The notes: generated by a model not told the origin, from the sequence alone. 64,000 nucleotides of DNA from a bacterium (GCA_030606215.1 JAUWGW010000006.1:2207-66206), one strand, 5' to 3'. Positions 501 through 61,403 are shown, counted from the first letter of the stretch. Program-made: numbers and translations.

Positions 501-1964
501 ATGTTATCCGTAGAAGACAGAGAGATACTCAGAGAAAAAGTTTATGCACTTCTTGAGGATGTTGGTATGAAAGTTGAGAATGAGGAAGTTTGCTCTTTCT
601 TGCTTAAGAACGGTTGTTTTGAGACTCCCTCTAAAAGAATAAGAATACCCAAGAAGTTAATAGATGGAATGGCAATTTCACAGAAAAAAACTCAAAGTGA
701 GGATGATAAAGACCAGGAGCTAATCTTTCCCTGTGGAGTGGATTGGGCGCATTCCATAATCTGGAATAAGAAACAAGATGATATGAGAGATGTATTAAAA
801 AAGAGATTTTTAATGTCTGCTTTTGATTGCGGTCCCACTAAATACTATGATTACAAAAAGAAGGAAAGTATTCCGGTGGATACGGAAATATTTATTGAAA
901 TGAAGAAGTTTGCTCAGGCTACTCCTGAGATAGGTTATATCAGCACGTGGTACAGGCAGGGTGTCCCTGCGAAAATAGAAAGATTGGATTCTTTGATTCT
1001 TGGGCTTAAGCATACAGACAAGTTAGATGGTATTGAAGCTATATATCCAGAGGTAATAAAGTATTTAAAGGAGGCAAGTGAAATAATAACTGGTAGAGAT
1101 GGTGATTCAAGTTATTTAGCCGGTTCGGAATGTATTACTTCTCCTCTTGTATTGGAGAGAAGGTCTGCTGAGGACATATTAGAAAGGAAGAAGAGAGGAA
1201 TAAACAGGTACCATGTTGCTTCCATGCCTACCATAGGAGTATCCACTCCGGTTACCGTAGCGGGAGCTATTGTAATGTCAGCAGCAGAAATCTTAGGTGG
1301 TATGGCTATCTGTTTCCTTCTTGACCCCAAATCAGACCTCTCCGGCAGGATGATTTCAATGGTTACTGATATGAAGACGGGGAATTCTCTCAGTAGTGGA
1401 CCGGAGGTAAGTCTGGTTAATATAGGGGTGAAAGAACTGTTTGATGCTTTCTGGGGAGGGCATCTCTGGGTTGAGGTATTTTTCAGTCCTTCAGCAAAAG
1501 AGCCAGGTTTAATGACAGTATATGAAAACCTTTATGGAGCTTATCGCTATTCTAAGCTAACCAGGAACCCGGATATTCCCTACCCGGGAATGGGAACTTT
1601 AGGCGATGGAGGAATAGGTTCTCCAACTCAATTTATTCTGGATATGGAGATAAGGAAATCTGAGTTTGCTCTCAAAGACAGTATAGATGTTGATGAAGAA
1701 ACCCTCCCTTTCGTCGATATTTGTAAAATGACTGAGGAAAGAAAAGAATTCTTAAGCAGTGAACATACCTTGAAACATTTCCGGGAACTCTGGTCATCAG
1801 ACATACTTAATTTTAAAGGAGATGGAAAAAATATTCTAAATAGATGTGATGAGGTGTGGAGAGAGAATGTCAAAAAATGGGAACCTCCTGAATGGCCGGA
1901 GGATAAAATCAAAGCCCTGAACAATTTATTGGAAAGGGCAAAAGAGGAGCTTTTAAATGCCTGA
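501..1964 (+). CDS. MttB-superfamily protein (trimethylamine/glycine-betaine:corrinoid methyltransferase family; no in-frame amber codon, so non-pyrrolysine)
   Basis: 487 aa. The N-terminus LSVEDREILREKVYALLEDVGMKVENEEVCSFLLKNGCFETPSKRIRIP fits the MttB/MtgB N-terminal pattern (IHxASLEILExxGV...EEAL.LL..AGA.V.G.RVRIP). Size is typical of the family. AGGGGA-like RBS upstream. A paralog lies at 6367-7827. Confidence 0.6.
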   Translation: MLSVEDREILREKVYALLEDVGMKVENEEVCSFLLKNGCFETPSKRIRIPKKLIDGMAISQKKTQSEDDKDQELIFPCGVDWAHSIIWNKKQDDMRDVLKKRFLMSAFDCGPTKYYDYKKKESIPVDTEIFIEMKKFAQATPEIGYISTWYRQGVPAKIERLDSLILGLKHTDKLDGIEAIYPEVIKYLKEASEIITGRDGDSSYLAGSECITSPLVLERRSAEDILERKKRGINRYHVASMPTIGVSTPVTVAGAIVMSAAEILGGMAICFLLDPKSDLSGRMISMVTDMKTGNSLSSGPEVSLVNIGVKELFDAFWGGHLWVEVFFSPSAKEPGLMTVYENLYGAYRYSKLTRNPDIPYPGMGTLGDGGIGSPTQFILDMEIRKSEFALKDSIDVDEETLPFVDICKMTEERKEFLSSEHTLKHFRELWSSDILNFKGDGKNILNRCDEVWRENVKKWEPPEWPEDKIKALNNLLERAKEELLNA

Positions 1965-3012
1965 GAAGATTCGGCTTGGTTTAGTTCGGTGTGACACACA
2001 CAGCTATTATTTTGGCGCAATGCTTAACAAATGCGACCCTCTGCTCTTACAGAAAAATAATTATGTTGTTCATCACTATCTCACCAATATATATAACCCG
2101 AAGCGCTTAACTATGCCAAAGGTCACAGGGTTCAGATTGGTCAAGGTGTACGACTATAATCCAGAGGAGGCAAAAAAGTTTTCTGAAACCTTCCTGAGTA
2201 AGCCTCAAATATGCGAGACCTTAGAGAAAATGACAGAGGGTATTGATGCAGTCTTCATCGCTGACTGTGATGGAGGAGGTGGAGACCATTTAAAGTTGGC
2301 GACCCCTTTCTTGAAGAAAGGCATCCCCGCTTTTGTTGATAAACCATTCGCATCAACTTTAAGAGATGCAAAAGCAGTTGTTGCATTGGGGAAGAAATAT
2401 AATGCTCCAATTTTCAATTCTTCAATTCTAAGTGTTGTTCCTGCTGCAGACCAATTCAAAAATAGGATTAATGAAATTGTCAGAGCATATTGGCCCGTTC
2501 CCTCTTCACTCCCTCCTGCAGGGAGTATTTTGGGTGTGGTGAAGGGTGTTGGAGGTGCCTTTTCCCAGGAACTTAAAGGTAAAGCGATTACTGGCGGGTT
2601 AGAAGAGCGGTTAGCCTATGTCATTCATGGTATTGCGCTCGGGCTAAACCTTTTTGGAAGAAGTGTGGAATGGGTGGAGTGTATGGGGACCCTTCCCCTT
2701 GAATATCTGCATATGCATCTTAAGAGCGGAGTTGAAATCTTGGTAATGAATACTTCCATAGATTTCTTTCCGGAATCTTGCTCCTTCTATGCCGCGGCAT
2801 ATAGTAAATTTGGCACTATCCACTCTCAACCTATAGGTGACCCCGAATTCATTGGAGGAGGTGCGAAGATTCTGCGGCTCTTCAAGAAGATGATTTTAAC
2901 AGGAAAACCACCTGTTCCATATGAGGACATCCTTGAACACATTGCTGTTGTAGAAGCCGGTCAATTAGCACAGAAGACGGGGAAGCGGGTTTATCTAAAA
3001 GATATCACGTAG
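1957..3012 (+). CDS. Divergent Gfo/Idh/MocA-like oxidoreductase-fold protein; the dinucleotide-binding GxGxxG is replaced by RCDTHSY
   Basis: 351 aa. The block [58 protein letters not shown] aligns with the Gfo/Idh/MocA core (DAVxIATP..H......AL.AGKHVLCEKP.A....EA..M...A.K.G). AAGAGGAG RBS 7 nt upstream. ATG overlaps the stop of the upstream gene. A paralog lies at 7847-8878. Confidence 0.5.
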   Translation: MPEKIRLGLVRCDTHSYYFGAMLNKCDPLLLQKNNYVVHHYLTNIYNPKRLTMPKVTGFRLVKVYDYNPEEAKKFSETFLSKPQICETLEKMTEGIDAVFIADCDGGGGDHLKLATPFLKKGIPAFVDKPFASTLRDAKAVVALGKKYNAPIFNSSILSVVPAADQFKNRINEIVRAYWPVPSSLPPAGSILGVVKGVGGAFSQELKGKAITGGLEERLAYVIHGIALGLNLFGRSVEWVECMGTLPLEYLHMHLKSGVEILVMNTSIDFFPESCSFYAAAYSKFGTIHSQPIGDPEFIGGGAKILRLFKKMILTGKPPVPYEDILEHIAVVEAGQLAQKTGKRVYLKDIT

Positions 3013-3021
3013 GGAAGACAT

Positions 3022-3981
3022 ATGCTTAATAAAATTAATATGTTAAGGTCGATGTATCGGATACGTTTCTTTGAAGAGAAAGCAAAGAAACTTTATAAAG
3101 AGGGTATGATGGCTGGCGATTCCTTAGGAGCGCTTCATTCCTATATTGGTGAGGAAGCCATAGCAGTTGGTGCTTGCGCTACACTTAAAAAAGGTGACTA
3201 TGTATTAAGCACTCATAGAGGTCATGGTCACTGTATTGCTAAAGGTGGTAACATAAAGAGGATTATGGCTGAACTTCAAGGGAAAGAAACAGGTTACTCC
3301 CGAGGGAGAGGCGGTTCAATGCACCTTTTTGCTCCTGAGATAGGATTCATGGGTGGGAATGGGATTGTAGGAGGTGGTATTCCAATTGCAGTTGGCACGT
3401 CTTACTCAGCCAGCTACAGAGAGACAGATCAGGTTACAATATGTTTCTTTGGTGATGGAGCTGCAACTCAAGGGACATTCCACGAATCCTTAAACATAGC
3501 TTCGCTATGGAAGTTACCGGTTATATTCGTCTGTGAAAACAATCTTTACGCTGTTACTACCCCTGTGTCAGAGACGATATCTATACCAAATATTGGAGAT
3601 AGAGCATGTGCTTATGGTATGCCAGGGAAGGTCGTAGATGGTAACGATGTTTTGCAGGTTTATGAAACTGTCTTAGAAGCTGTAAATAGAGCACGAGCTA
3701 AAGAATGGCCAACATTAATTGAATGCAGGACATATCGCTGGGACCCTCATTGTTTTGTTATCCCTGAAACGAGGGGAGGAGATGAGATAAAAGATTGGAA
3801 GACCAAGGACCCAATTGCCCGCTTTGAGAAGATTCTTTTAGATGAAGGCGCTATAACAGGAGAGCAAGTGGGAAAGATAAGGTCAGAGATTATTAAAGAG
3901 ATAGATGAGGCAGAGGAATTTGCCAGAAATAGCCCGTATCCAGATGTTGTGGAATTCAAAAGAGAGGTAGATGTTTACTGA
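3022..3981 (+). CDS. TPP-dependent 2-oxoacid dehydrogenase E1 component, alpha subunit (PdhA/AcoA family)
   Basis: 319 aa. TPP-binding motif FFGDGAATQGTFHESLNIASLWKLPVIFVCENNLYAV (GDG...NN). E1-alpha motifs ...THRGHGHCIAKG... and RGRGGSMH are present. Confidence 0.85.
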   Translation: MLNKINMLRSMYRIRFFEEKAKKLYKEGMMAGDSLGALHSYIGEEAIAVGACATLKKGDYVLSTHRGHGHCIAKGGNIKRIMAELQGKETGYSRGRGGSMHLFAPEIGFMGGNGIVGGGIPIAVGTSYSASYRETDQVTICFFGDGAATQGTFHESLNIASLWKLPVIFVCENNLYAVTTPVSETISIPNIGDRACAYGMPGKVVDGNDVLQVYETVLEAVNRARAKEWPTLIECRTYRWDPHCFVIPETRGGDEIKDWKTKDPIARFEKILLDEGAITGEQVGKIRSEIIKEIDEAEEFARNSPYPDVVEFKREVDVY

Positions 3982-4026
3982 ACCCCGTGTCATTCTGACC
4001 CTGAGTGAAGCGAAGGGGAAGAATCT

Positions 4027-5031
4027 ATGGAAGGCAGCATGCGAGAAATAAGGTATGTTGATGCTTTAAATGAAGCACTATGTGAAGAAATGGAGAGAGA
4101 TAAAAATGTCTTTCTCATTGGAGAAGATATAGGTCCCTTAGGAGGAGGTTTTGGAGTAAGCAAAGGGCTCTTTGATAAGTTTGGTGAGAAGAGAGTGAGA
4201 CAAACACCAATCTCAGAGTCAGCCATCATAGGAACGGCAGTTGGAACCGCAATGACAGGTTTGAAGCCAATTGCTGAGATAATGTATATAGATTTTATCA
4301 CCTGCGGGATGGATCAGGTAATAAATCAGGCGGCAAAACTTTCTTTCATGTCCGGAGGCGGTATAAAAATTCCTCTGGTTATCAGGACACAACAGGGAAT
4401 TGGAACGAGGGAAGCCGCCCAGCATAGCCAGAACTTAGAAGCCTGGTTTGTCCACACTCCAGGTCTTAAGGTTGTGATGCCTGCAACTCCCTATGATGCG
4501 AAAGGATTGCTCAAAGCAAGTATCAGGGATGATTCGCCTGTAGTCTTTATTGAGAATAGACTCCTGTATTTCAAGAAAGATACTGTGCCTGAAGGTGAGT
4601 GGTTAGTTCCCTTAGGAGAAGCTGAAATTAAAAGAGAAGGGAATGATATTACTGTAATTGCTACTTCTCTTATGGTACATAAGGCATTGGAAACCGCAGC
4701 TACTCTTTCGCCGGAAATAAGTGTAGAGGTAATTGATTTAAAAACTTTGGTGCCACTTGATATAAAGAGAATAATTGAGTCAGTGAAGAAAACAGGCAAA
4801 ATTTTGGTTCTTCATGAGGCACCTACAAGAGGAGGAGTAGGGGCAGAGATATTAAGAGAAGTAATGAAGGAAGCATTTAGGTATTTAGTTACTCCACCAA
4901 GAGTTCTTGGAGGTTTAAATACACCTATTCCCTTCTCTCCTCCTCTGGAGGACGTTTGTGTACCCCAGACAAAAGATATTGTCAAAATGGTGAGAGAGAT
5001 TATAAAGGAGAAATGGAATGAGCGAAATTGA
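4027..5031 (+). CDS. TPP-dependent 2-oxoacid dehydrogenase E1 component, beta subunit (PdhB/AcoB family; transketolase-like C-terminal domain)
   Basis: 334 aa. IRYVDALNEAL...VFLIGEDIG..GGGFGVSKGLFDKFGEKRVRQTPISESAIIGTAVGTAMTGLKPIAEIMYIDF is a typical E1-beta N-terminus. It lies immediately downstream of the alpha subunit. Confidence 0.85.
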   Translation: MEGSMREIRYVDALNEALCEEMERDKNVFLIGEDIGPLGGGFGVSKGLFDKFGEKRVRQTPISESAIIGTAVGTAMTGLKPIAEIMYIDFITCGMDQVINQAAKLSFMSGGGIKIPLVIRTQQGIGTREAAQHSQNLEAWFVHTPGLKVVMPATPYDAKGLLKASIRDDSPVVFIENRLLYFKKDTVPEGEWLVPLGEAEIKREGNDITVIATSLMVHKALETAATLSPEISVEVIDLKTLVPLDIKRIIESVKKTGKILVLHEAPTRGGVGAEILREVMKEAFRYLVTPPRVLGGLNTPIPFSPPLEDVCVPQTKDIVKMVREIIKEKWNERN

Positions 5032-6367
5032 AGATTTAAAAAAAGATGCTCTGGCTTACATTTGCCCGCATTTTGCATCTAACACAGAACTTTCTAAAGG
5101 ACCAAAGATATTTGTCAAAGGAGAAGGCTGTTACGTTTATGATATAGAAGGAAACTGCTATCTGGATACCTTTGCATCTCTTCTCACCACAATATGCGGT
5201 CATAATCGCTCTGAGATAGCGAAGGTGGTTCAGGAACAAATGAAGCAGTTAGAGTTTTTCCCAAATTATGTGGATACTTTCACCGTGCCGCTTATAAAGT
5301 TGGCAAAGAAATTAGCTGAGATTACTCCAGGAGACCTTTCGGTCTCCTTCTTTGTTAACAGCGGTTCTGAAGCCTGTGAGACTGCCATAAAGATGGCAAG
5401 ACAGTACCACTTAGAAAAAGGAGAACGTTCAAGATATAAGATTATTGCAAGGAGATATTCTTATCATGGGACAACCCTGGGTGGCGTATCAGCCACTGGG
5501 ATACCATGGTTCAGGGAATATTTCGAGCCTCTACTTCCTGGATTTATCCATGTAATTGCTCCACATTGTTTCAGGATGGGACTTGAGCCAGATGAATGTA
5601 AAGAAATCTGCTTAAAGGCAATGGAGGAGACAATTCTCTGGGAGGGGCCTGAGTCAGTTGCGGCAGTTATCCTTGACCCTATTCCTGGTTCAAATATGGG
5701 TTATCCACTTCCTCCTGATGGGTATCTTCAGGGCATAAGAAAGATATGTAATAAATATGGGATTTTGCTTATTTTTGATGAAGTGCAGACTGGTTTTGGT
5801 AAGACAGGAAAAATGTTTGCTTGTGAACACTGGGATGTGACACCGGACATTATGGCTATTGGTAAAGGGTTTACTGGTGGATATATACCTCTGGCTGCAA
5901 CCATAACCACACCCGGGATATATGAAGTATTCAAGAAACCCGGTTCTGAATTCCGCAGCGGCAGCACATATGGAGGGCATACGACTGCATGTGCTGCTAC
6001 TCTTACTAATATAGATATAATTGAGAAGGAAAATCTTGTAGAAAAAGCGGCGGAGATGGGAAAGTATTTAAAAAGTAAATTGGAGGAACTATATAAGTAC
6101 AGAATAGTTGCAGATTTTCGTGGTATAGGGATGCTCTGGGCAATAGAACTGATGGCGGATAGAGAAAAGAGAAAGCCGCTTGATACAAAGCTCAATGTAG
6201 GCAGCTGGATAAGAGAATGGTGCTGGAAGAATAAGATGATTCTCAGGAATAATGCCGATATTCTCGTTATTGCACCTGCGCTTGTGATGACAAAAGACCA
6301 GATAGATGAAATGCTTGGCAAAATTGACCAGGCTATAGGAGAAGCAATTAAACAATTCAATCTGTGA
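5018..6367 (+). CDS. Class-III (omega) aminotransferase, PLP-dependent
   Basis: 449 aa. Motifs GSEACETAIKMARQY, ILLIFDEVQTGFGKTGKMFA and MAIGKGFTGGYIPLAA (PLP-binding Lys) are characteristic of the aspartate aminotransferase fold type I, class III. Overlaps the upstream gene by 14 nt. Confidence 0.8.
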   Translation: MSEIEDLKKDALAYICPHFASNTELSKGPKIFVKGEGCYVYDIEGNCYLDTFASLLTTICGHNRSEIAKVVQEQMKQLEFFPNYVDTFTVPLIKLAKKLAEITPGDLSVSFFVNSGSEACETAIKMARQYHLEKGERSRYKIIARRYSYHGTTLGGVSATGIPWFREYFEPLLPGFIHVIAPHCFRMGLEPDECKEICLKAMEETILWEGPESVAAVILDPIPGSNMGYPLPPDGYLQGIRKICNKYGILLIFDEVQTGFGKTGKMFACEHWDVTPDIMAIGKGFTGGYIPLAATITTPGIYEVFKKPGSEFRSGSTYGGHTTACAATLTNIDIIEKENLVEKAAEMGKYLKSKLEELYKYRIVADFRGIGMLWAIELMADREKRKPLDTKLNVGSWIREWCWKNKMILRNNADILVIAPALVMTKDQIDEMLGKIDQAIGEAIKQFNL

Positions 6368-7827
6368 TGACAATGGCACTCAACTATGCTTATCCTACTT
6401 ATAAAATGGATATAACGAGTGAAATACTTGATGAATGCTGTGATATTGCTGTGAGATTATTGAAAGAAGTTGGCATGGAGGTAGGGCATGAAAGATTCCT
6501 GGATACAATAAAAAGGAGAAGTGGAATAAAAATTGAAGGGAAGAAGGTTCGTTTTGAAGAAGCCCTCGTGCGAAAAAATTTAGAGAGATGCATTGCTGAG
6601 AGTAAAGAGGTGTTGAAGCAGAAAGAAGAAGGGCGAGATAACAAGTGGAGGCTGATGTCAAATGGATATTCTATGTGTGTTATTGATATTGAAACTGATG
6701 AAATCAGGCCTGCGACCTGTCAGGATTTAAGAGACCTGATTAAACTGAAGGATTCTTTTGGAATAGTTGGGTCCTACCCGGTTATGCCACAAGACCTTCC
6801 TCCTTTAATGAGAGCTATCGCTTGTTTTAAAATCTGCTGTGAGGCAAGTGACAAAACCAGGCCATATGATTACCAGAATATAAAACAAACAAGATACATA
6901 TACGAAATGTGTAAAGTAATGGGGAAAAGTTTTGAGATAGTATTAAATATCTCACGAACAATGGCGATAGACAGGAATGACATGGATGTTTTCTTTGATT
7001 TTTATCCTGATTGGAAAAAGGGTGGTGATATATCTCTGACAGCTAATAGTTACCCCATGCTTGGAATAAATAAGCCTATCACTGCAACAGGGTGTATTGC
7101 ATTACACATGGCTGAGATGCTTGGAGTACAGGTTTTGTTTAACTTATTTGACCCGGAAATAAAATTAGCGTTTAAGGTTCGAGCTGGGTATCCTACTGAT
7201 ATGAGACACACATGCTGGGCATTTGGTTCTCCCAAAGCTCATCTTTATGCATACTTGAATTCCAGGATTTTTCCCAACCTATGCAAATGTGATAATGGAA
7301 ATTATACGCCTGACACTGTTCGGTTAGAAACAAGCTCAAGCGCAGTGGATGAACAGGCTGCTCTGGAAAAAATAGGGGTGGCAATGGTGGCGGCTCTTCA
7401 AGGATGCAAAAGTTTCTCATATGCTGGAAATCTCTGTGTGGATGACCTTTTTAGCGGTGTGCAGTTTGTAATAGATGTGGAGATATTTAATTATATCAAG
7501 GAAACGATAGAATCTTTCGATCCCCATCCGGACATTTTCAGTATGGACGGGTTATATGAAATGCTGAGGGATGTAAGCATAGGAAAGGAGCAGTTCCTAT
7601 CCCATCCGGACACAGCCGCAAAGTTAAGGAATATTCTACCGTCATCGGAGCGGATTCATCGTGAGAAACTGAGCTCATGGTTTGAGCATAGAAAGACACT
7701 CAAAGATAGGGCAAGGGAAGAATGTATAGAAAGGATAAAAAATTTCCCTGAGTATCATTTGCCTGAGGATAAGCAGAAAGAGCTGGATGCGATATACAAG
7801 AGAGCAAACGCTGACCTTGTGAAATAA
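6367..7827 (+). CDS. MttB-superfamily protein, second paralog (non-pyrrolysine)
   Basis: About 486 aa. ITSEILDECCDIAVRLLKEVGMEVGHERFLDTIKRRSGIKIEGKKVRFEE matches the same N-terminal pattern as 501-1964. ATG at 6367 overlaps the TGA of the aminotransferase; GTG at 6364 is an alternative start. Confidence 0.6.
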   Translation: MTMALNYAYPTYKMDITSEILDECCDIAVRLLKEVGMEVGHERFLDTIKRRSGIKIEGKKVRFEEALVRKNLERCIAESKEVLKQKEEGRDNKWRLMSNGYSMCVIDIETDEIRPATCQDLRDLIKLKDSFGIVGSYPVMPQDLPPLMRAIACFKICCEASDKTRPYDYQNIKQTRYIYEMCKVMGKSFEIVLNISRTMAIDRNDMDVFFDFYPDWKKGGDISLTANSYPMLGINKPITATGCIALHMAEMLGVQVLFNLFDPEIKLAFKVRAGYPTDMRHTCWAFGSPKAHLYAYLNSRIFPNLCKCDNGNYTPDTVRLETSSSAVDEQAALEKIGVAMVAALQGCKSFSYAGNLCVDDLFSGVQFVIDVEIFNYIKETIESFDPHPDIFSMDGLYEMLRDVSIGKEQFLSHPDTAAKLRNILPSSERIHREKLSSWFEHRKTLKDRAREECIERIKNFPEYHLPEDKQKELDAIYKRANADLVK

Positions 7828-7846
7828 AAATTGGGAGGGGTTGGGG

Positions 7847-8878
7847 ATGAAAAAGTTTCGTATTGGGATGATTCGTTGTGATACACATTCCTACTGGTAT
7901 GGAGCATTTATGGCAAAATGCGATATTGCGCTCTTGCAGAAAAACAGTGTTGCTGTCCATGATTACTTTTGCAGATTTAACGAACTGGCCATTTCGCTTG
8001 TTCCGGGACTTGAAATCGTCAGGGTATGGGATTATGATTCCGCTACGGCACAGAAATTCTCCGAGACATTTCTTGGCAAACCACAGGTCTGCGAAACAGT
8101 GGAGGAAATGACAGATGGTATTGATGCGGTGTTTATTGCTGATTCCACTGGAGATGGATCAGACCATCTGGAACTTGCTTCGCCTTTTTTGAAGAAGGGG
8201 ATACCTGCCTTTGTTGATAAGCCATTTGCTTCGAGGTTTAAAGATGCAAAGGCAATGGTGAGGCTGGCGAAGAAGAATGATGTGCCGCTTATGTCAGCAT
8301 CTTTATTGCAAGGATATACCGATACGGCGATAGAGTTTCGCCGTCGGTTCAAAGAGATCGGCCCTATCCAACTTGCGGTGAAAAAGGAAATAGAATTTCG
8401 CCGACGATTTAGAGAAACTAGCCCTATCCGACTTGCGGTGGTGAAAGGACTGACAAGCCTTGCCGGTGTCATTCACGGTATATCCATGGTGCAGGGCTTT
8501 TTCGGAGATGGTGTAGAGTGGGTGGAATGTATGGGTTCGCTTCCTCTGGAGTTCCTACTTCTGCATTATAAGAACGGGTTGCAAGCCATTGTGATGAGTC
8601 CTTCGAATGAGAGTTTTCACTACACCTGCTCCTTCCATTGTTCCGTCTATAGTAGGTTCGGTAAGATCCATAATCGTGGAGTTCTCCATATGCCACCCAT
8701 AGGTGATTTTGAATTTCCCACGGGCACACGGCGAATCGTACTTCAGTTTAAGCAGATGCTAAAAATACGTAAGCCTCCCATCCCTTATGAATTTCTACTT
8801 GAACTGATTGCTATCATGGATGCCGGAAGGATGGCTCAACAAAAAGGAAGGCGAATATATTTGAAGGATGTAAAATAA
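7847..8878 (+). CDS. Divergent Gfo/Idh/MocA-like protein, second paralog; contains an in-frame 2 x 20-aa tandem duplication
   Basis: N-terminus [20 protein letters not shown] and core [58 protein letters not shown] parallel 1957-3012. The GGGAGGGG RBS favours ATG at 7847; the track's 7841 is a TTG start. Confidence 0.5.
8330..8449 (+). repeat. In-frame imperfect tandem duplication, 2 x 60 nt, encoding [20 protein letters not shown] / [20 protein letters not shown]
   Basis: Direct comparison of 8330-8389 with 8390-8449 gives about 80% identity. The paralog at 1957-3012 has only one copy of the corresponding segment. Confidence 0.6.
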
Positions 8879-13710: not shown

Positions 13711-15245
13711 ACGAATACAAGTTATATTGGGGTGATTTACATACACATCTTGAGGATTTCGACAACAGCGATGCAATCCTTCGTGATGCCCAAGAGAACA
13801 TCGACTTTTGTGCCGTGCTCTGCTACCCATTTGCCTGGGAAAGAAAACGCGGATTGCTAGTTGAAAGTGTCAGGCAACGGCCGGAATTTCTTCAATGGTG
13901 GGAAAAACTCCGGGAGTTGGCTCGCACGCACCATCACCCCGGCCGCTTTGTCACCTTTCTGGGTTATGAATGGCATGGAAATCGAACACATTATGGTGAC
14001 CACAATGTGATCTATTTTGATGAAAATAATCCATTGGATGATGCATGGGCGTTAGAGGATCTGTACAGAAATCTACAGAAGCGCAGGGCAATTGCCATCC
14101 CTCACCACACGGGTTATTGTCGGGGATGGCGCGGTAAGAACTGGGATGTTTTTGACGAAAAGTTATCCCCTGTGATGGAGGTATTCTCTATACATGGCTC
14201 ATCCGAAGGTTGCAACACACCGTTTCCCCTGGAGCAGAATAGTAGCATGGGGCCCCGGACCACAGGCGGTACGCTTCACGATGCCCTCGCGCGGGGTTAT
14301 CAGGTTGGTGTTATTGGATCAAACGATGGTTCTGGACTTCCAGGTCGGTGGGGGATTGGACGGGCAGGTGTTTGGGCACGCGAGTGCACACGAGAAGCCA
14401 TCTGGGAGGCATTGCTGGCGCGCCGCACATATGCTACGACCGGAGATCGAATTAAGCTTGATTTTCAAATAAATGGTGCACCTATGGGATCAGTAATACA
14501 AAGAGATAGTTCAATAGATGCCGATGTAATCATTGAAGGCTCTCACGCCATTGACCGAGTAGAGTTATTGCAAAATGGATACGTTATTGATACATACTGC
14601 CACAGTGGTTGCTGGGAAGACCAAGTACAAAAATCCGGACGGTTCAAGGTTTTTATAGAAGCTGGCTGGGGACCTGCGGCACACTATGGATATCAGCCGA
14701 TGAATTGGAAGTGGTCGTGTCGTCTTGATGTTGAATTGGGTCGTTTAGTGAGTGTGGAGAGATGCTTTTCGCTTTTAGGTCAGAGAGTTAAGTCACATAG
14801 TGAGAGCCACTGTACTTGGGAGCTGACTACGGCAGGTCGTACAATCCGTAACAACCCCTTTGGAATGTGCCAGGGGATTGTCTTTGAGCTGGAGGGCGAC
14901 CTCAAGACACGGCTTCGTTTGCAGATGGAGGGGGTGACACTCGAGCTGTCAGTCGGGGATCTCATAAGAGGATCCCATGTGGTTCCGCTCGTGGAAGAAT
15001 CAAAACGCAGGGTGCAGGAGACCTTCGGCCTGGAGGAAAAGGAGTTGGGTAACTGTGATACATACTACTCCAATGCCCGAAAAATTAAACTGCACAAGGC
15101 AATTCCGGAGAGAGGTTACCGGGTCGCTCACACGTTTCGCAATCTCAATCTGACTAAGGGTCGCAATTACTTCTATGTAAGAGTGTCGCAGCTCAATGGG
15201 CAGTTGGCATGGTCATCGCCGATTTGGATGGACTCTAAGTCATGA
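13707..15245 (+). CDS. DUF3604/PHP-like metal-dependent hydrolase-fold protein (function unknown)
   Basis: 512 aa. N-terminus YWGDLHTHL...FLGYEWHG...IAIPHHTGY is rich in the His-containing motifs typical of PHP/DUF3604 proteins. Strong ORF. Its GC content is visibly higher than that of flanking genes. Confidence 0.4.
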   Translation: MNEYKLYWGDLHTHLEDFDNSDAILRDAQENIDFCAVLCYPFAWERKRGLLVESVRQRPEFLQWWEKLRELARTHHHPGRFVTFLGYEWHGNRTHYGDHNVIYFDENNPLDDAWALEDLYRNLQKRRAIAIPHHTGYCRGWRGKNWDVFDEKLSPVMEVFSIHGSSEGCNTPFPLEQNSSMGPRTTGGTLHDALARGYQVGVIGSNDGSGLPGRWGIGRAGVWARECTREAIWEALLARRTYATTGDRIKLDFQINGAPMGSVIQRDSSIDADVIIEGSHAIDRVELLQNGYVIDTYCHSGCWEDQVQKSGRFKVFIEAGWGPAAHYGYQPMNWKWSCRLDVELGRLVSVERCFSLLGQRVKSHSESHCTWELTTAGRTIRNNPFGMCQGIVFELEGDLKTRLRLQMEGVTLELSVGDLIRGSHVVPLVEESKRRVQETFGLEEKELGNCDTYYSNARKIKLHKAIPERGYRVAHTFRNLNLTKGRNYFYVRVSQLNGQLAWSSPIWMDSKS

Positions 15246-15246
15246 A

Positions 15247-16299
15247 ATGAAACAGGCAGAGGTCAAAAAAGCTTGGTTAACTGCAGGTAATCGAGCACGT
15301 GTCATAGCCACATTGAGTCATAAGAAATCAGACAAGGTGCCTTATAATGTAAGTTTTACCCGAAAGGCACGTGCTAAGATGATTGAATCTTATGGAGATC
15401 CTGATTTCGAATCAAAATTGGGAAATTGTCTGACAGTGATGCGTTGTGAGCCCAAAGATAGTTGGAAAGAGGTAAACCCCAATATTTGGGAGGACCAATT
15501 CAGAGTCCAGTGGAATCGGACCGTAGATAAAGATATAGGTGTGGTTTGTAATTGTTTAGTAACACCGGATAATATCAATGAATATGAATTTCCTGACCCA
15601 GATGATCCGTTAAGATATGATGATTATAACGAGATTATTAAAACAAAGAAAGATGGATTTTTTGTAGTAGCTCTCGGATTTAGCCTATTTGAAAGAGCTT
15701 GGACTCTCACCGGTATGGAGAATTTACTTATGGCGATGATCTCCGATAAGGATTTTGCCAATTCTTTGCTGGATAAGATTTTGGATTTCAATCTAAGAAT
15801 AATCGAAAATGCTTGCCTCTTTGATATTGATGCGATGATGTTTGGAGATGATTGGGGGCAGCAGACTGGTCTTATCATGGGCCCAAAACTTTGGCGGGAA
15901 TTTATCAAGCCTCGTATCAAACAGATGTATGAGTTAGTAAAATCAAAGGGCAAATTCGTCTTCATCCATTCTTGCGGCAAAGTGGATGAAATATTTCCAG
16001 ATTTGATAGATTGTGGTGTGGATGTATTTAATCCGTTTCAACCTGAGGTAATGAATGTATTTGAGATGAAGAAGAGATATGGTAGTTCACTAAGTTTCTA
16101 TGGTGGTATCAGCACCCAGCGGACTTTACCCTATGGGACTGTCACTGAGGTGAAAGACGAAGTCAAGCGACTGCTCGATGTTATCGGGGAAAATGGGGGT
16201 TACATTGCAGCTCCTGCACACGCTATACCAGCTGATGCAAAGCCCGAAAACATTGCTGCCATGATAGAAGTTTTACAACATCAATTTCCACAAATATGA
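15247..16299 (+). CDS. Uroporphyrinogen-decarboxylase (URO-D/MtaA-like) family protein
   Basis: About 350 aa from ATG 15247, the first codon after the stop of the upstream gene. The C-terminal region LWREFIKPRIKQMYELVKSKGKFVFIHSCGKVDEIFPDLIDCGVDVFNPFQPEV...YIAAPAHAIP fits the URO-D/methylcobamide:CoM methyltransferase fold. Confidence 0.55.
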   Translation: MKQAEVKKAWLTAGNRARVIATLSHKKSDKVPYNVSFTRKARAKMIESYGDPDFESKLGNCLTVMRCEPKDSWKEVNPNIWEDQFRVQWNRTVDKDIGVVCNCLVTPDNINEYEFPDPDDPLRYDDYNEIIKTKKDGFFVVALGFSLFERAWTLTGMENLLMAMISDKDFANSLLDKILDFNLRIIENACLFDIDAMMFGDDWGQQTGLIMGPKLWREFIKPRIKQMYELVKSKGKFVFIHSCGKVDEIFPDLIDCGVDVFNPFQPEVMNVFEMKKRYGSSLSFYGGISTQRTLPYGTVTEVKDEVKRLLDVIGENGGYIAAPAHAIPADAKPENIAAMIEVLQHQFPQI

Positions 16300-16645: not shown

Positions 16646-16673
16646 TTGACGGGGGGTGGGAGTGAGTGATAAT
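16646..16673 (+). promoter_or_regulatory. Putative sigma70-type promoter (TTGACG-16nt-GATAAT) for the 16747-18412 gene pair
   Basis: Read directly: ttgacg ggggggtgggagtgagt gataat. It lies about 75 nt upstream of ATG 16747. Confidence 0.3.
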
Positions 16674-16746
16674 ATCAGTTACTGGGGAAGACGGTCTCTG
16701 GAGTCAAAAGGTGGTATTAGCCTGCGTTAATTTGGAGGGAAGAGAC

Positions 16747-17697
16747 ATGGATTTAGTTTCTACGATAGAAGGTTCACTATTAGAAGGGTTTTTCCCTGAA
16801 GGTTGGGATTTGAAAAAATTGGATGAGTGCTGTAACAATGCACCTGAATCCATCACAGAATCTCAGGAATGGTGGCATTCTGATTTCAGACCTGTTCCCT
16901 GTGAGGATTTATCAGAGTTTAACACACTGATGGGACATGAAATAGCTCTCAGAATAAAGGAGAGTAAAGAGGAGGGAAAGAAGATAATTTTTATTCTTCC
17001 GGTAGGTCCAATGGGAATGTATAAATGGGCGGTATACTTCTTAAAAGAGTGGGGAGTGGATTGTAAACATGTCTATGGATTCAATATGGATGAATGGAGT
17101 GATGGGAAGGGAAATACTTTGCCTTCTGATAATCCCGGCGCATTTCAAAATGCTATGGAGGCGGCTTTCTATGGACCTTTAGGGGAATTAACTGTGCCGG
17201 CGGAACAGCGGCATTTTGCTGCTAAAGATGTTTTGCCTGCCTATCCGGAGAAAATAGCAAAACTCAAGCAGGAAGGAGCGCAACTCGTAGTTGTCTTTGG
17301 TATAGGCAGAATTTTCCATATTGCTTTCTGGGAACCACATTTTGCCGCTGAGTTTAAAACGGAAGAGGAGTGGAAGAACCAGAGTTACAGATTGGGCGCC
17401 AAGCTCCATCCATTAACTATAGAGCAGAATGCTATTACCAGTTTCAAAAGTAGAACTACACTGGTTCCCTGTTTTGCCAATACCATAGGTCCCGGTATAT
17501 TTCTTGAGGCGGATTGGATTATAGGGGGTTGTGATGGTAGTTTAGGTCGTGGTATGATGTGGCAGGGGTTATCGTTATGGGTAACCTTAAGGCATGGTCC
17601 AAGTATCTGGATACCGTCAAGTTTTATGCCGACATTACCAGGCAAACTCTTCTTCCTCAAGGAATTGGCAGGTCCATTAGAAGCAGAATGTAACTAA
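16747..17697 (+). CDS. Glucosamine-6-phosphate deaminase/6-phosphogluconolactonase (NagB-like) fold protein, tentative
   Basis: About 316 aa from ATG 16747, which has GGAGGG 6 nt upstream; the track's 16666 start precedes the [20 protein letters not shown]...GFNMDEW...[16 protein letters not shown] resembles the NagB/SOL fold. Paired with a PIG-L deacetylase. Confidence 0.4.
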
Positions 17698-61313: not shown

Positions 61314-61403
61314 TGGCGGAGAGGCCGGGATTCGAACCCGGGGTGGAGTTGCCCCCACAACTGCTTAGCAGGCAGCTGCCTTCAACCGCTCGGCCACCTC
61401 TCC
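61314..61403 (-). tRNA. tRNA-Ser (anticodon GCU), class II with long variable arm
   Basis: Reverse complement is GGAGAGGTGGCCGAGCGGTTGAAGGCAGCTGCCTGCTAAGCAGTTGTGGGGGCAACTCCACCCCGGGTTCGAATCCCGGCCTCTCCGCCA. Perfect 7-bp acceptor stem, T-arm CCGGG-TTCGAAT-CCCGG, anticodon loop CU-GCU-AA, encoded CCA. Confidence 0.85.

What the first reader, a model, noticed from the sequence alone, without database searches (positions are those of the whole stretch)
1957..8878. Both Gfo/Idh/MocA-like paralogs share the same replacement of the NAD(P)-binding GxGxxG loop (RCDTHSY[YW])
The N-termini read IRLGLVRCDTHSYYFGAM and [18 protein letters not shown], where canonical family members have I.VG.IG.G.IG. The downstream core, including the EKP-equivalent VDKPFA, is well conserved. 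The change is identical in both diverged paralogs, so it is a conserved feature rather than decay. These may be cofactor-independent or pseudo-dehydrogenase partners of the MttB-like proteins, or may bind a different ligand.
Basis: partly seen in the sequence, partly recalled or inferred. Interest (0 to 1): 0.5.

Follow-up and report, generated by a model that had tools for sequence, protein, structure and literature searches.

The report
Dehydrogenase-fold proteins lacking NAD-binding loop
Two genes in one sugar-utilisation operon encode proteins shaped like sugar dehydrogenases, but the glycine loop that normally holds NAD is replaced by a strictly conserved Arg-Cys-Asp-x-His motif; they belong to a large, unstudied bacterial family, so the label 'oxidoreductase' is probably wrong and a different, still unknown activity is likely.

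Summary

The motif is not decay. Asp and His are present in 176 of 176 close homologues. The catalytic Lys (DKP) and the C-terminal His are present in 178 of 178. The one subfamily that lost Asp/His also lost that Lys, that His and Asp295.

The family has about 135 clusters at 50% identity, in Planctomycetota, Omnitrophota, Lentisphaerota, Armatimonadota and others. It has no solved structure, no curated model and no literature that I could find.

Best reading: an NAD-independent enzyme whose former cofactor cleft has become a new His/Lys/His/Asp site. It probably acts by acid-base or metal-assisted chemistry on a sugar-derived carbonyl compound. This is inferred, not shown.

The link to MttB-like genes is real but facultative. 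MttB-like genes occur in 16 of 36 family loci. None of 6 informative loci found from the MttB side carries this family. 'Obligate MttB partner' is therefore not supported.

The parts
1957..3012 (+). GFO-like paralogue 1 (351 aa), a member of the R-[C/A]-D-x-H clade of the Gfo/Idh/MocA fold
1987..2004 (+). R11-C12-D13-T14-H15-S16, the replacement of the GxGxxG fingerprint in paralogue 1
   Evidence: Coordinates. Beta1 is residues 5-10 and helix A starts at residue 14. D13 and H15 present in 176/176, R11 in 174/176, position 16 only G/A/S (plus one Cys).
2338..2346 (+). D128-K129-P130, the equivalent of the EKP motif carrying the catalytic Lys
   Evidence: Aligned to vEKP/vDKP of PDB members. 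Present in 178/178.
2626..2628 (+). His224, the equivalent of the His/Tyr of the C-terminal DxxxH/Y motif. The Asp of that motif is Ala220 here.
   Evidence: Invariant 178/178. Position 220 is A/G/S in 174/178. Assignment by position in the model's helix 215-233 and family knowledge (inference).
7847..8878 (+). GFO-like paralogue 2 (343 aa from ATG 7847; the ORF list starts at TTG 7841)
   Evidence: AF2 pLDDT 92.2 with the same topology. No close orthologue: the next best hit is 49% identical.
7874..7891 (+). R-C-D-T-H-S motif of paralogue 2
   Evidence: Coordinates. Sits at the beta1/helix-A junction in the model.
8216..8224 (+). D-K-P motif of paralogue 2
501..1964 (+). MttB-like TIM-barrel protein 1. 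Its stop overlaps the start of paralogue 1 by 8 nt.
   Evidence: PF06253 79 bits; TIGR02369 102 bits against a cut-off of 525.
6364..7827 (+). MttB-like protein 2, directly upstream of paralogue 2
   Evidence: PF06253 97 bits. Best PDB match is the glycine betaine methyltransferase MtgB (2qne/9yce), E 5e-10.
3022..5031 (+). TPP-dependent E1 alpha (3022-3981) and E1 beta (4027-5031) subunits
   Evidence: PF00676, PF02779 and PF02780. Co-occur with the family in 15/36 loci.
5018..6367 (+). Class-III (omega) aminotransferase
   Evidence: PF00202, 344 bits. Co-occurs with the family in 14/36 loci.
15196..16299 (+). URO-D family protein of the MtaA type (H-x-C zinc motif kept), part of the same recurring cluster
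   Evidence: PF01208. Best PDB match is 4ay7, methylcobalamin:CoM methyltransferase. Found in 9/36 family loci and 5/7 MttB-side loci.

Best explanation
The two genes encode members of a distinct, widespread and uncharacterised clade of the Gfo/Idh/MocA fold.

Shown:
- They have the full two-domain fold.
- The glycine-rich dinucleotide fingerprint is replaced by R-[C/A]-D-x-H-[G/A/S].
- This replacement is invariant across the clade.
- The canonical catalytic Lys (D-K-P) and the C-terminal-domain His are also invariant.
- Asp13, His15, Lys129, His224 and Asp295 are lost together in the one degenerate paralogue subfamily, so they behave as one functional site.

Inferred:
- Asp13 sits at the N-cap of helix A (the position of the second Gly) and Arg11 at the position of the first Gly. 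Together they fill or neutralise the anion hole that normally binds the NAD pyrophosphate, so NAD(P) is not bound in the classical way.
- His15 falls at the position just before the third fingerprint residue. This is 'site 5', which packs on the nicotinamide in canonical enzymes. His15 therefore points into the cleft next to Lys129 and His224.
- The old cofactor and substrate cleft has thus become a new His/Lys/His/Asp active site. It most likely does redox-neutral acid-base chemistry, possibly metal-assisted: isomerisation, epimerisation, elimination or Schiff-base chemistry.
- The substrate is probably a sugar-derived carbonyl or amino compound.
- The proteins act as homo- or hetero-oligomers of paralogues.
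- They are accessory enzymes of a variable glycan or amino-sugar catabolic cluster. The core of that cluster is an MttB-like protein, an MtaA-like URO-D protein, a class-III aminotransferase and a TPP-dependent E1 or transketolase.
For: Fold:
- AF2 pLDDT 91.1 and 92.2.

Motif position:
- Beta1 is residues 5-10 and helix A starts at 14. Paralogue 2 is the same.
- The Pfam and PDB profile alignments leave out the first 50 or so residues.

Conservation:
- D13 and H15 in 176/176. D66, H111, D128, K129, S156, H224 and D295 in 178/178. Position 16 is G/A/S only, apart from one Cys.
- The same set is invariant in 34 sequences spanning about 46% mean identity.

Co-loss:
- L005_12607 and representatives P0214, P0229 and P0241 have N/G and R instead of D13/H15.
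- L005_12607 and P0214, the two of these tabulated at the other positions, also have K129R, H224D and D295A, while H111 and D128 stay.

Site 5:
- It is Tyr17 in the GLGKYA fingerprint of AAOR and Thr13 in the 9-14 fingerprint of GFOD1 (PMC11612644).

Context:
- ROK, PIG-L deacetylase, a GH123-like protein, a sugar-binding SBP, E1ab and the aminotransferase lie in the window.
- The same gene set recurs in several phyla.
- Canonical GxG-bearing GFO dehydrogenases sit in the same clusters, so a redox step already has a candidate.
- At least two family members occur in 23/36 loci, and tandem pairs in 16/36.
- Tat signal peptides on some members imply export in the folded state to a compartment without free NAD.
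Against: - No coordinates of the model were available, so the proximity of His15 to Lys129 and His224 is inferred from register and from published descriptions, not measured.
- Several residues that contact NAD in canonical enzymes are kept: the acidic residue at the end of beta2 (D66), H111 and D/E-K-P. This would also fit a non-classical NAD site.
- From my own knowledge, Gal80p binds NAD(P) with a degenerate loop.
- Retention of Lys and His could reflect ligand binding rather than catalysis.
- No metal site, substrate or reaction could be tested.
- The co-loss argument rests on one subfamily.
Confidence: 0.45

Rival explanations
1. They are still NAD(P)-dependent oxidoreductases that hold the dinucleotide in a non-classical way, for example with His15 and Arg11 hydrogen-bonded to the pyrophosphate and Asp66 to the adenosine ribose.
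For: - D66 (end of beta2), H111, D-K-P and H224 are all positions that touch NAD or substrate in canonical members, and all are invariant.
- DKP in place of EKP also occurs in solved family members 1xea, 1tlt and 3uuw.
- Related clades keep the first Gly, as in G-x-D-x-x-H.
Against: - No Gly remains at the first or second fingerprint position. The second position, whose C-alpha touches the pyrophosphate, is an invariant Asp, which would be both a steric and an electrostatic clash (established Rossmann-fold knowledge).
- The Asp of the DxxxH motif is Ala.
- Canonical GFO dehydrogenases are encoded alongside in the same clusters.
- Pfam C-terminal-domain models do not match.
Confidence: 0.2
2. 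They are non-catalytic pseudo-enzymes: scaffolds, regulators or chaperone-like subunits that bind the MttB-like protein encoded just upstream.
For: - The start of paralogue 1 overlaps the stop of the MttB-like gene by 8 nt, and paralogue 2 follows the second MttB-like gene.
- MttB->GFO-like adjacency with gaps of -7 to 78 nt occurs in 7 loci.
- There is a precedent for cofactor-less family members in vertebrate GFOD1 (PMC11612644).
Against: - The catalytic Lys and His are invariant, and a separate, clearly degenerate subfamily shows what loss of function looks like in this family.
- 20 of 36 family loci have no MttB-like gene in reach.
- None of 6 informative MttB-side loci carries the family.
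- Some members are Tat-exported and sit in tandem pairs without an MttB-like gene (L023).
Confidence: 0.12
3. They carry a non-nicotinamide organic cofactor. The boldest version is a corrinoid held His-on by the Asp-x-His after beta1, analogous to the DxHxxG of B12-binding domains. They would then serve as the missing corrinoid protein for the MttB-like and MtaA-like methyltransferase homologues of the cluster.
For: - The cluster holds homologues of both methyltransferase types that act on corrinoid proteins: the MttB family, and a URO-D/MtaA type with H-x-C kept.
- No B12-binding domain protein appears in any annotated locus, and none in a motif screen of 736 kb.
- D-x-H sits after beta1 of an alpha/beta domain, as in B12-binding domains (analogy).
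- Gene order mimics mttB-mttC.
Against: - MttB-like/URO-D clusters without any member of this family also lack a corrinoid protein, so the family is not what fills that gap.
- The motif lacks the Gly at +5, and the related clades have D-x-x-H or no Asp.
- The fold is Gfo/Idh/MocA, not flavodoxin-like.
- No cobalamin riboswitch was found.
- Many family loci have neither methyltransferase homologue.
Confidence: 0.06
4. The motif is meaningless decay in pseudogenes or a mis-called N-terminus.
For: Paralogue 2 has no close orthologue and carries an internal duplication.
Against: - Both ORFs are intact, with full-length confident models.
- The motif is identical in paralogues that are 48% identical, and invariant in 176 homologues from at least seven phylum-level groups.
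Confidence: 0.01

Closest known systems
Canonical Gfo/Idh/MocA oxidoreductases (for example A. radiobacter oxidoreductase 5uhw, GenD2 6nor, 1,5-anhydrofructose reductase 2glx, inositol dehydrogenases)
   Same: - PF01408 match over beta2-beta6.
- The 'xDaVxIa...H' and (E/D)KP motifs, and the His of the C-terminal motif, are kept.
- They occur in sugar-catabolic gene clusters.
   Different: - The GxGxxG/A fingerprint is replaced by R-[C/A]-D-x-H-[G/A/S].
- An insertion of about 25 residues (two helices) lies between helix A and beta2.
- The 'aTP' loop after beta4 is replaced by a longer D-C-x-G-x-G-x-D-H loop.
- The Asp of DxxxH is Ala.
- Pfam C-terminal-domain models do not match.
- Identity is only 13-20%.
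Vertebrate GFOD1/GFOD2, described as the only cofactor-deficient members of the family (PMC11612644; 8y7p)
   Different: - GFOD1 still has a recognisable GxSxxA loop. It loses binding through neighbouring residues, and EKP is degraded to DRT.
- Here the loop itself is rewritten, D-K-P is intact, and a new invariant Asp/His pair appears.
- This family is bacterial, sits in operons with catabolic enzymes, and is no closer to GFOD1 than to any other member.
Yeast Gal80p (3bts), a Gfo/Idh/MocA-fold transcriptional repressor
   Different: Gal80p binds NAD(P) as a signal (own knowledge) and lacks the catalytic residues. Here the catalytic Lys and His are invariant, and the loop carries Arg and Asp at the Gly positions.
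Corrinoid proteins of methylamine methyltransferase systems (MttC/MtgC; B12-binding domain with DxHxxG)
   Same: An alpha/beta domain with Asp-x-His directly after beta1. Encoded next to an MttB-family gene.
   Different: Different fold and family. No Gly at +5, no SxL or GG signature, and no Pfam PF02310 match. The resemblance is an analogy only, and MttB-side loci lacking this family argue against equivalence.

Membership tests
Gfo/Idh/MocA family (PF01408 and its fold) | Two-domain architecture: an N-terminal Rossmann-like domain plus a C-terminal alpha/beta domain with an open sheet | tested here: met
   [not shown]
Gfo/Idh/MocA family (PF01408 and its fold) | Sequence match to PF01408 above the gathering score | tested here: met
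   40.8 and 52.3 bits against a cut-off of 24, but only profile positions 24/26-114/118.
Gfo/Idh/MocA family (PF01408 and its fold) | Glycine-rich dinucleotide fingerprint GxGxxG/A between beta1 and helix A | tested here: not met
   R-C-D-T-H-S occupies that position. No Gly at the first or second position in 176 homologues.
Gfo/Idh/MocA family (PF01408 and its fold) | EKP motif with the catalytic Lys after beta5 | tested here: met
   D-K-P in 178/178. It aligns to EKP/DKP of PDB members.
Gfo/Idh/MocA family (PF01408 and its fold) | C-terminal-domain D-x-x-x-H/Y catalytic motif | tested here: inconclusive
   His224 is invariant, but the Asp position is Ala/Gly/Ser. The equivalence was assigned by position, not by superposition.
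Gfo/Idh/MocA family (PF01408 and its fold) | Binds NAD(P) and catalyses hydride transfer | not testable with these tools
   Needs protein biochemistry or ligand-aware modelling.
Cofactor-less pseudoenzymes of the family (GFOD1/2 type) | Loss of NAD(P) binding together with loss of the residues at sites 3-5 and of EKP | tested here: inconclusive
   [not shown]
B12-binding (corrinoid) domain, PF02310 | DxHxxG ... SxL ... GG signature in a flavodoxin-like domain | tested here: not met
   No Pfam hit at E <= 0.1. The motif is D-x-H-[GAS]-aromatic-aromatic. The fold is Gfo/Idh/MocA.
MttB superfamily (the neighbouring genes, PF06253) | Match to PF06253; for a true trimethylamine methyltransferase, TIGR02369 above 525 bits and an adjacent corrinoid protein | tested here: inconclusive
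   PF06253 matches at 79 and 97 bits. TIGR02369 gives only 102-104 bits. No corrinoid protein was found in any of the annotated loci.

The most novel reading that the evidence does not exclude
The Gfo/Idh/MocA scaffold has been converted here into a holder of a non-nicotinamide cofactor, either a metal centre or a corrinoid ligated by the Asp-x-His dyad. It would work with the orphan MttB-like and MtaA-like TIM-barrel proteins of the cluster in a methyl-transfer or demethylation system that has no canonical corrinoid protein. Such a system could, for example, remove methyl groups from methylated or N-methylated sugars in anaerobic glycan degraders.
Probability: 0.07. Interest if true: 0.9.

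Novelty: new variant of a known kind. Interest (0 to 1): 0.55.

Why it matters
[quoted passage not shown] This bacterial clade has about 135 clusters at 50% identity. Related His-loop clades add to about 1,300 profile hits at E <= 1e-10, a count that probably also includes some ordinary family members. The fingerprint itself has been rewritten under strong purifying selection.
- All these proteins are currently annotated 'Gfo/Idh/MocA family oxidoreductase', which is probably misleading.
- If the cleft has been repurposed for NAD-independent chemistry, this is a clean natural example of a Rossmann cofactor site evolving into a catalytic site.
- It would also be an entry point to an unknown catabolic pathway that recurs in hard-to-culture glycan degraders (Planctomycetota, Omnitrophota, Lentisphaerota, Armatimonadota, Latescibacterota).
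- The same work exposes a conserved cluster of MttB-like and MtaA-like proteins with no corrinoid protein, which is a puzzle in its own right.

Tried and rejected
- Looking up the window's own contig by exact protein returned only a 2.7-kb Logan contig, and cluster look-up gave no names.
- My first crude ORF caller produced spurious antisense ORF 'families' (c2, c9) in high-GC loci. I replaced it with tblastn mapping of reference proteins.
- Literature searches for MttB plus Gfo/Idh/MocA, and for cofactor-less GFO proteins, found nothing on this family. The Taberman 2016 review could not be opened.
- The AFDB Foldseek library was unavailable.
- No cobalamin or other riboswitch was found in the window or in four loci.
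- The apparent fusion protein P0199 (474 aa) is a chimera or frameshift with a GHL10-like protein, not an informative fusion.
- Tandem Repeats Finder missed the internal duplication. The repeat finder found it.
- Pfam and a regex screen found no B12-binding domain. The regex hits were out-of-frame junk.
- I considered building a fused MttB+GFO-like chain to test complex formation with AlphaFold.
- I considered relocation of the dinucleotide loop to the 'DGGGGDH' stretch after beta4. I rejected this because only one Gly of that stretch is conserved.
Full report
**1. What is in the sequence**

The + strand of the first 18 kb of the window is one sugar-utilisation locus. Its genes, in order, are:
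- a ROK protein (1-477, cut by the window edge)
- an MttB-like protein (501-1964)
- GFO-like paralogue 1 (1957-3012)
- E1 alpha (3022-3981) and E1 beta (4027-5031)
- a class-III aminotransferase (5018-6367)
- a second MttB-like protein (6364-7827)
- GFO-like paralogue 2 (7841/7847-8878)
- a DUF1559 pilin-like protein
- a LamG plus GH123-N-like protein
- a sugar-binding SBP
- DUF3604
- a URO-D family protein (15196-16299)
- an ORF without any Pfam match
- a PIG-L deacetylase

The two GFO-like proteins begin ...IRLGLVRCDTHSYYFGAM and ...[18 protein letters not shown]. They are 48% identical.

**2. The motif really replaces the NAD fingerprint**

- Pfam PF01408 matches both proteins above threshold, but only from residue about 52-55, which is profile position 24-26.
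- A profile of the family aligns to solved family members only from about residue 55 onward. In that alignment 'aT..qdH' corresponds to 'aDCDGGGsDH' and 'vEKP' to 'vDKP'.
- The first 75 residues have no PDB match at all.
- AlphaFold2 models of both paralogues are confident (pLDDT 91.1 and 92.2, pTM 0.90). Strand beta1 ends immediately before R-C-D, and helix A starts at the Thr after the Asp. No other beta-alpha unit lies upstream.

The fold is therefore that of the family, and the fingerprint is not.

**3. It is a selected feature of a large family**

- Searches with the two paralogues return 341 and 381 proteins. Source names refer to Planctomycetota, Omnitrophota, Pirellulales, Verrucomicrobia and Armatimonadota.
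- A genome scan adds Victivallales/Lentisphaeria, Latescibacterota, Zipacnadia and Ratteibacteria. All of these are MAGs.
- In 178 homologues, Asp13 and His15 occur in all 176 with an intact N-terminus and Arg11 in 174. Position 12 is Cys (116) or Ala (53). Position 16 is Gly, Ala or Ser, apart from one Cys. D66, H111, D128, K129, S156, H224 and D295 occur in 178/178.
- The same residues are invariant in 34 sequences chosen for diversity, with 46% mean column identity.
- A profile search of 1.84 billion 50%-identity representatives finds 135 clusters at E <= 1e-30, 1,300 at <= 1e-10 and 6,313 at <= 1e-3.
- The best 150 show the core motif [R]-[C/A/V]-D-x-H. Further out are 290-300-residue clades with G-x-D-x-x-H, GG-x-x-x-H-G or G-x-S-x-G-N-G-H-P. 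All of these keep the His, D-K-P, S156 and H224.
- None has a curated NCBIfam model. I found no paper on them.

**4. What the conserved residues say**

By register with the models, Arg11 takes the place of the first fingerprint Gly. Asp13 takes the place of the second Gly, at the N-cap of helix A. The G/A/S at position 16 takes the place of the third.

His15 is then the residue just before the third position. In canonical enzymes this is 'site 5' (Tyr17 of the GLGKYA loop of AAOR, Met18 of PlIDH, Thr13 of GFOD1). That site packs on the nicotinamide and is counted as part of the active site, together with the EKP Lys and the C-terminal His/Tyr (PMC11612644).

An Asp side chain at the second-Gly position both clashes with and repels the pyrophosphate. 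It would also cap the helix N-terminus that normally binds the pyrophosphate. This follows from established Rossmann-fold knowledge and is an inference here.

A natural experiment supports a single functional site. One subfamily has the N-terminus C-[D/N/G]-[R/K/T]-R-A-L-W-Y-G-A-I-F (L005 12607, P0214, P0229, P0241). The two members tabulated at the other positions (L005_12607 and P0214) have lost Asp13 or His15 together with Lys129 (to Arg), His224 (to Asp) and Asp295 (to Ala). They keep H111 and D128, which are probably structural. It occurs next to intact paralogues.

The intact proteins therefore do not look like dead enzymes. They look like enzymes, or specific ligand binders, whose cleft has been rebuilt.

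**5. Genomic company**

From the GFO-like side, I mapped reference proteins by tblastn on 36 non-redundant family loci, many of them on short contigs. The counts are:

| Neighbour | Loci (of 36) |
|---|---|
| MttB-like | 16 |
| E1 alpha/beta | 15 |
| Aminotransferase | 14 |
| URO-D | 9 |
| PF04199 cyclase/formamidase | 9 |
| Amidohydro_2 | 5 |
| At least two family members | 23 |
| Tandem pair of family members | 16 |

The tandem pair is usually an 'A-type' member plus a roughly 328-residue 'B-type' member (IRCDLHAxYY). MttB->GFO-like direct adjacency (gap -7 to 78 nt) occurs in 7 loci, including both window pairs. Precomputed Pfam annotation of three long loci shows the same picture.

From the MttB-like side, homologues have the same phylum range. 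I examined seven further loci.
- They always show MttB-like with E1ab or a split transketolase, mostly with URO-D and the aminotransferase, sometimes with a small lipoyl protein.
- Glycoside hydrolases, SSF transporters and GlcNAc-2-epimerase-like genes surround them.
- None carries a core-family GFO-like gene (HMM scan; N-termini). One locus is cut right after the MttB gene.
- Three carry a canonical GFO dehydrogenase (G-Y-G-x-x-H-x-F-G). Two carry members of the wider His-loop clades.

The family is therefore a frequent accessory of a variable catabolic cluster, not an obligate partner of the MttB-like protein. Some members have twin-arginine signal peptides. This again argues for an autonomous folded unit, possibly carrying a cofactor or metal, that works where free NAD is absent.

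**6. The corrinoid idea, and why I rank it low**

The cluster contains homologues of both kinds of methyltransferase that act on corrinoid proteins.
- The MttB-like proteins match MtgB best in the PDB (E 5e-10), but reach only about 100 bits on TIGR02369 against a cut-off of 525.
- The URO-D protein matches MtaA best, with the H-x-C zinc motif kept.

No B12-binding domain appears in any annotated locus or in a motif screen of 736 kb. No cobalamin riboswitch was found. An Asp-x-His after beta1 is reminiscent of DxHxxG.

Four points argue against it:
- Clusters without the GFO-like family also lack a corrinoid protein.
- The motif lacks the Gly at +5.
- Related clades vary the Asp-His spacing.
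- The fold is not that of a B12-binding domain.

I keep it as the most novel reading not excluded (about 7%).

**7. Verdict**

Neither an obligate partnership nor a dead enzyme is supported.

Best explanation (confidence 0.45): an NAD-independent Gfo/Idh/MocA-fold enzyme with a repurposed cleft, built from His15, Lys129, His224 and Asp295, with Asp13 and Arg11 closing the pyrophosphate site. It would do acid-base or metal-assisted chemistry on a sugar-derived carbonyl or amino intermediate.

Rivals:
- non-classical NAD binding (0.2)
- non-catalytic MttB partner (0.12)
- alternative organic cofactor or corrinoid carrier (0.06)

Novelty: a new variant of a known kind. Interest is moderate to good, because the family is large, unannotated and contradicts the current statement that only vertebrate GFOD proteins lack the cofactor. 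However, the function remains inferred.

Noticed in passing
window 501-7827 and 15196-16299; loci L047-L053: A recurring, apparently undescribed gene cluster: an MttB-like protein, an MtaA-like URO-D protein (H-x-C kept), a class-III aminotransferase and TPP-dependent E1ab and/or a split transketolase, sometimes with a small lipoyl-domain protein. It sits in glycan-utilisation surroundings across several phyla. No corrinoid (B12-binding) protein lies nearby in any locus examined.
   Followed up: partly
window 8330-8380 and 8390-8440: GFO-like paralogue 2 contains a 60-nt direct duplication (80% identical; [18 protein letters not shown] / [18 protein letters not shown]). In the AlphaFold model it forms an extra, low-confidence helix (residues about 171-190, pLDDT 56-59).
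   Followed up: yes
window 7841-7849: The ORF list starts paralogue 2 at TTG 7841. The ATG at 7847, preceded by GGGAGGGG, and the 343-aa database copy (P0121) suggest that 7847 is the real start.
   Followed up: partly
L005 12586-13578; L002 11067-12053; L012, L013, L018, L026, L030-L032 (second gene of each tandem pair): The family splits into recurrent paralogue types. These are an A-type (like the window genes), a roughly 328-aa B-type (IRCDLHAxYY, or GCDLH in Armatimonadota) usually encoded directly downstream, and a degenerate type lacking Asp/His/Lys/His. This suggests hetero-oligomers, with catalytically dead subunits in some organisms.
   Followed up: partly
proteins P0026, P0090, P0098, P0249, P0253; L023 1065 and 2293: A minority of family members carry twin-arginine (Tat) signal peptides. 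In L023 both genes of a tandem pair do.
   Followed up: partly
L041-L043 (Pelagibacter, Salibacteraceae), L051 1953-2912, L052 3714-4601; proteins P0250-P0327: Much larger related clades of roughly 290-320-aa GFO-like proteins also lack a normal GxGxxG. They carry G-x-[D/E]-N-S-H, GG-x-x-x-H-G or G-x-x-x-G-N-G-H-P-Y-S-W instead, and all keep the His, D-K-P and the C-terminal His. They include SAR11 genomes and have no curated family model.
   Followed up: partly
window 16666-17697: A 343-aa ORF between the URO-D and PIG-L genes has no Pfam match at E <= 0.01.
   Followed up: no
window 18400-64000: The rest of the window reads as housekeeping genes: lysine and arginine biosynthesis, ribosomal proteins S9/L13, leuCD-like genes, 2-oxoacid:ferredoxin oxidoreductase subunits, and a type I restriction-modification-like set near 56.9-60.8 kb. 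These were judged by eye from translations only. One tRNA lies at 61317-61403.
   Followed up: no
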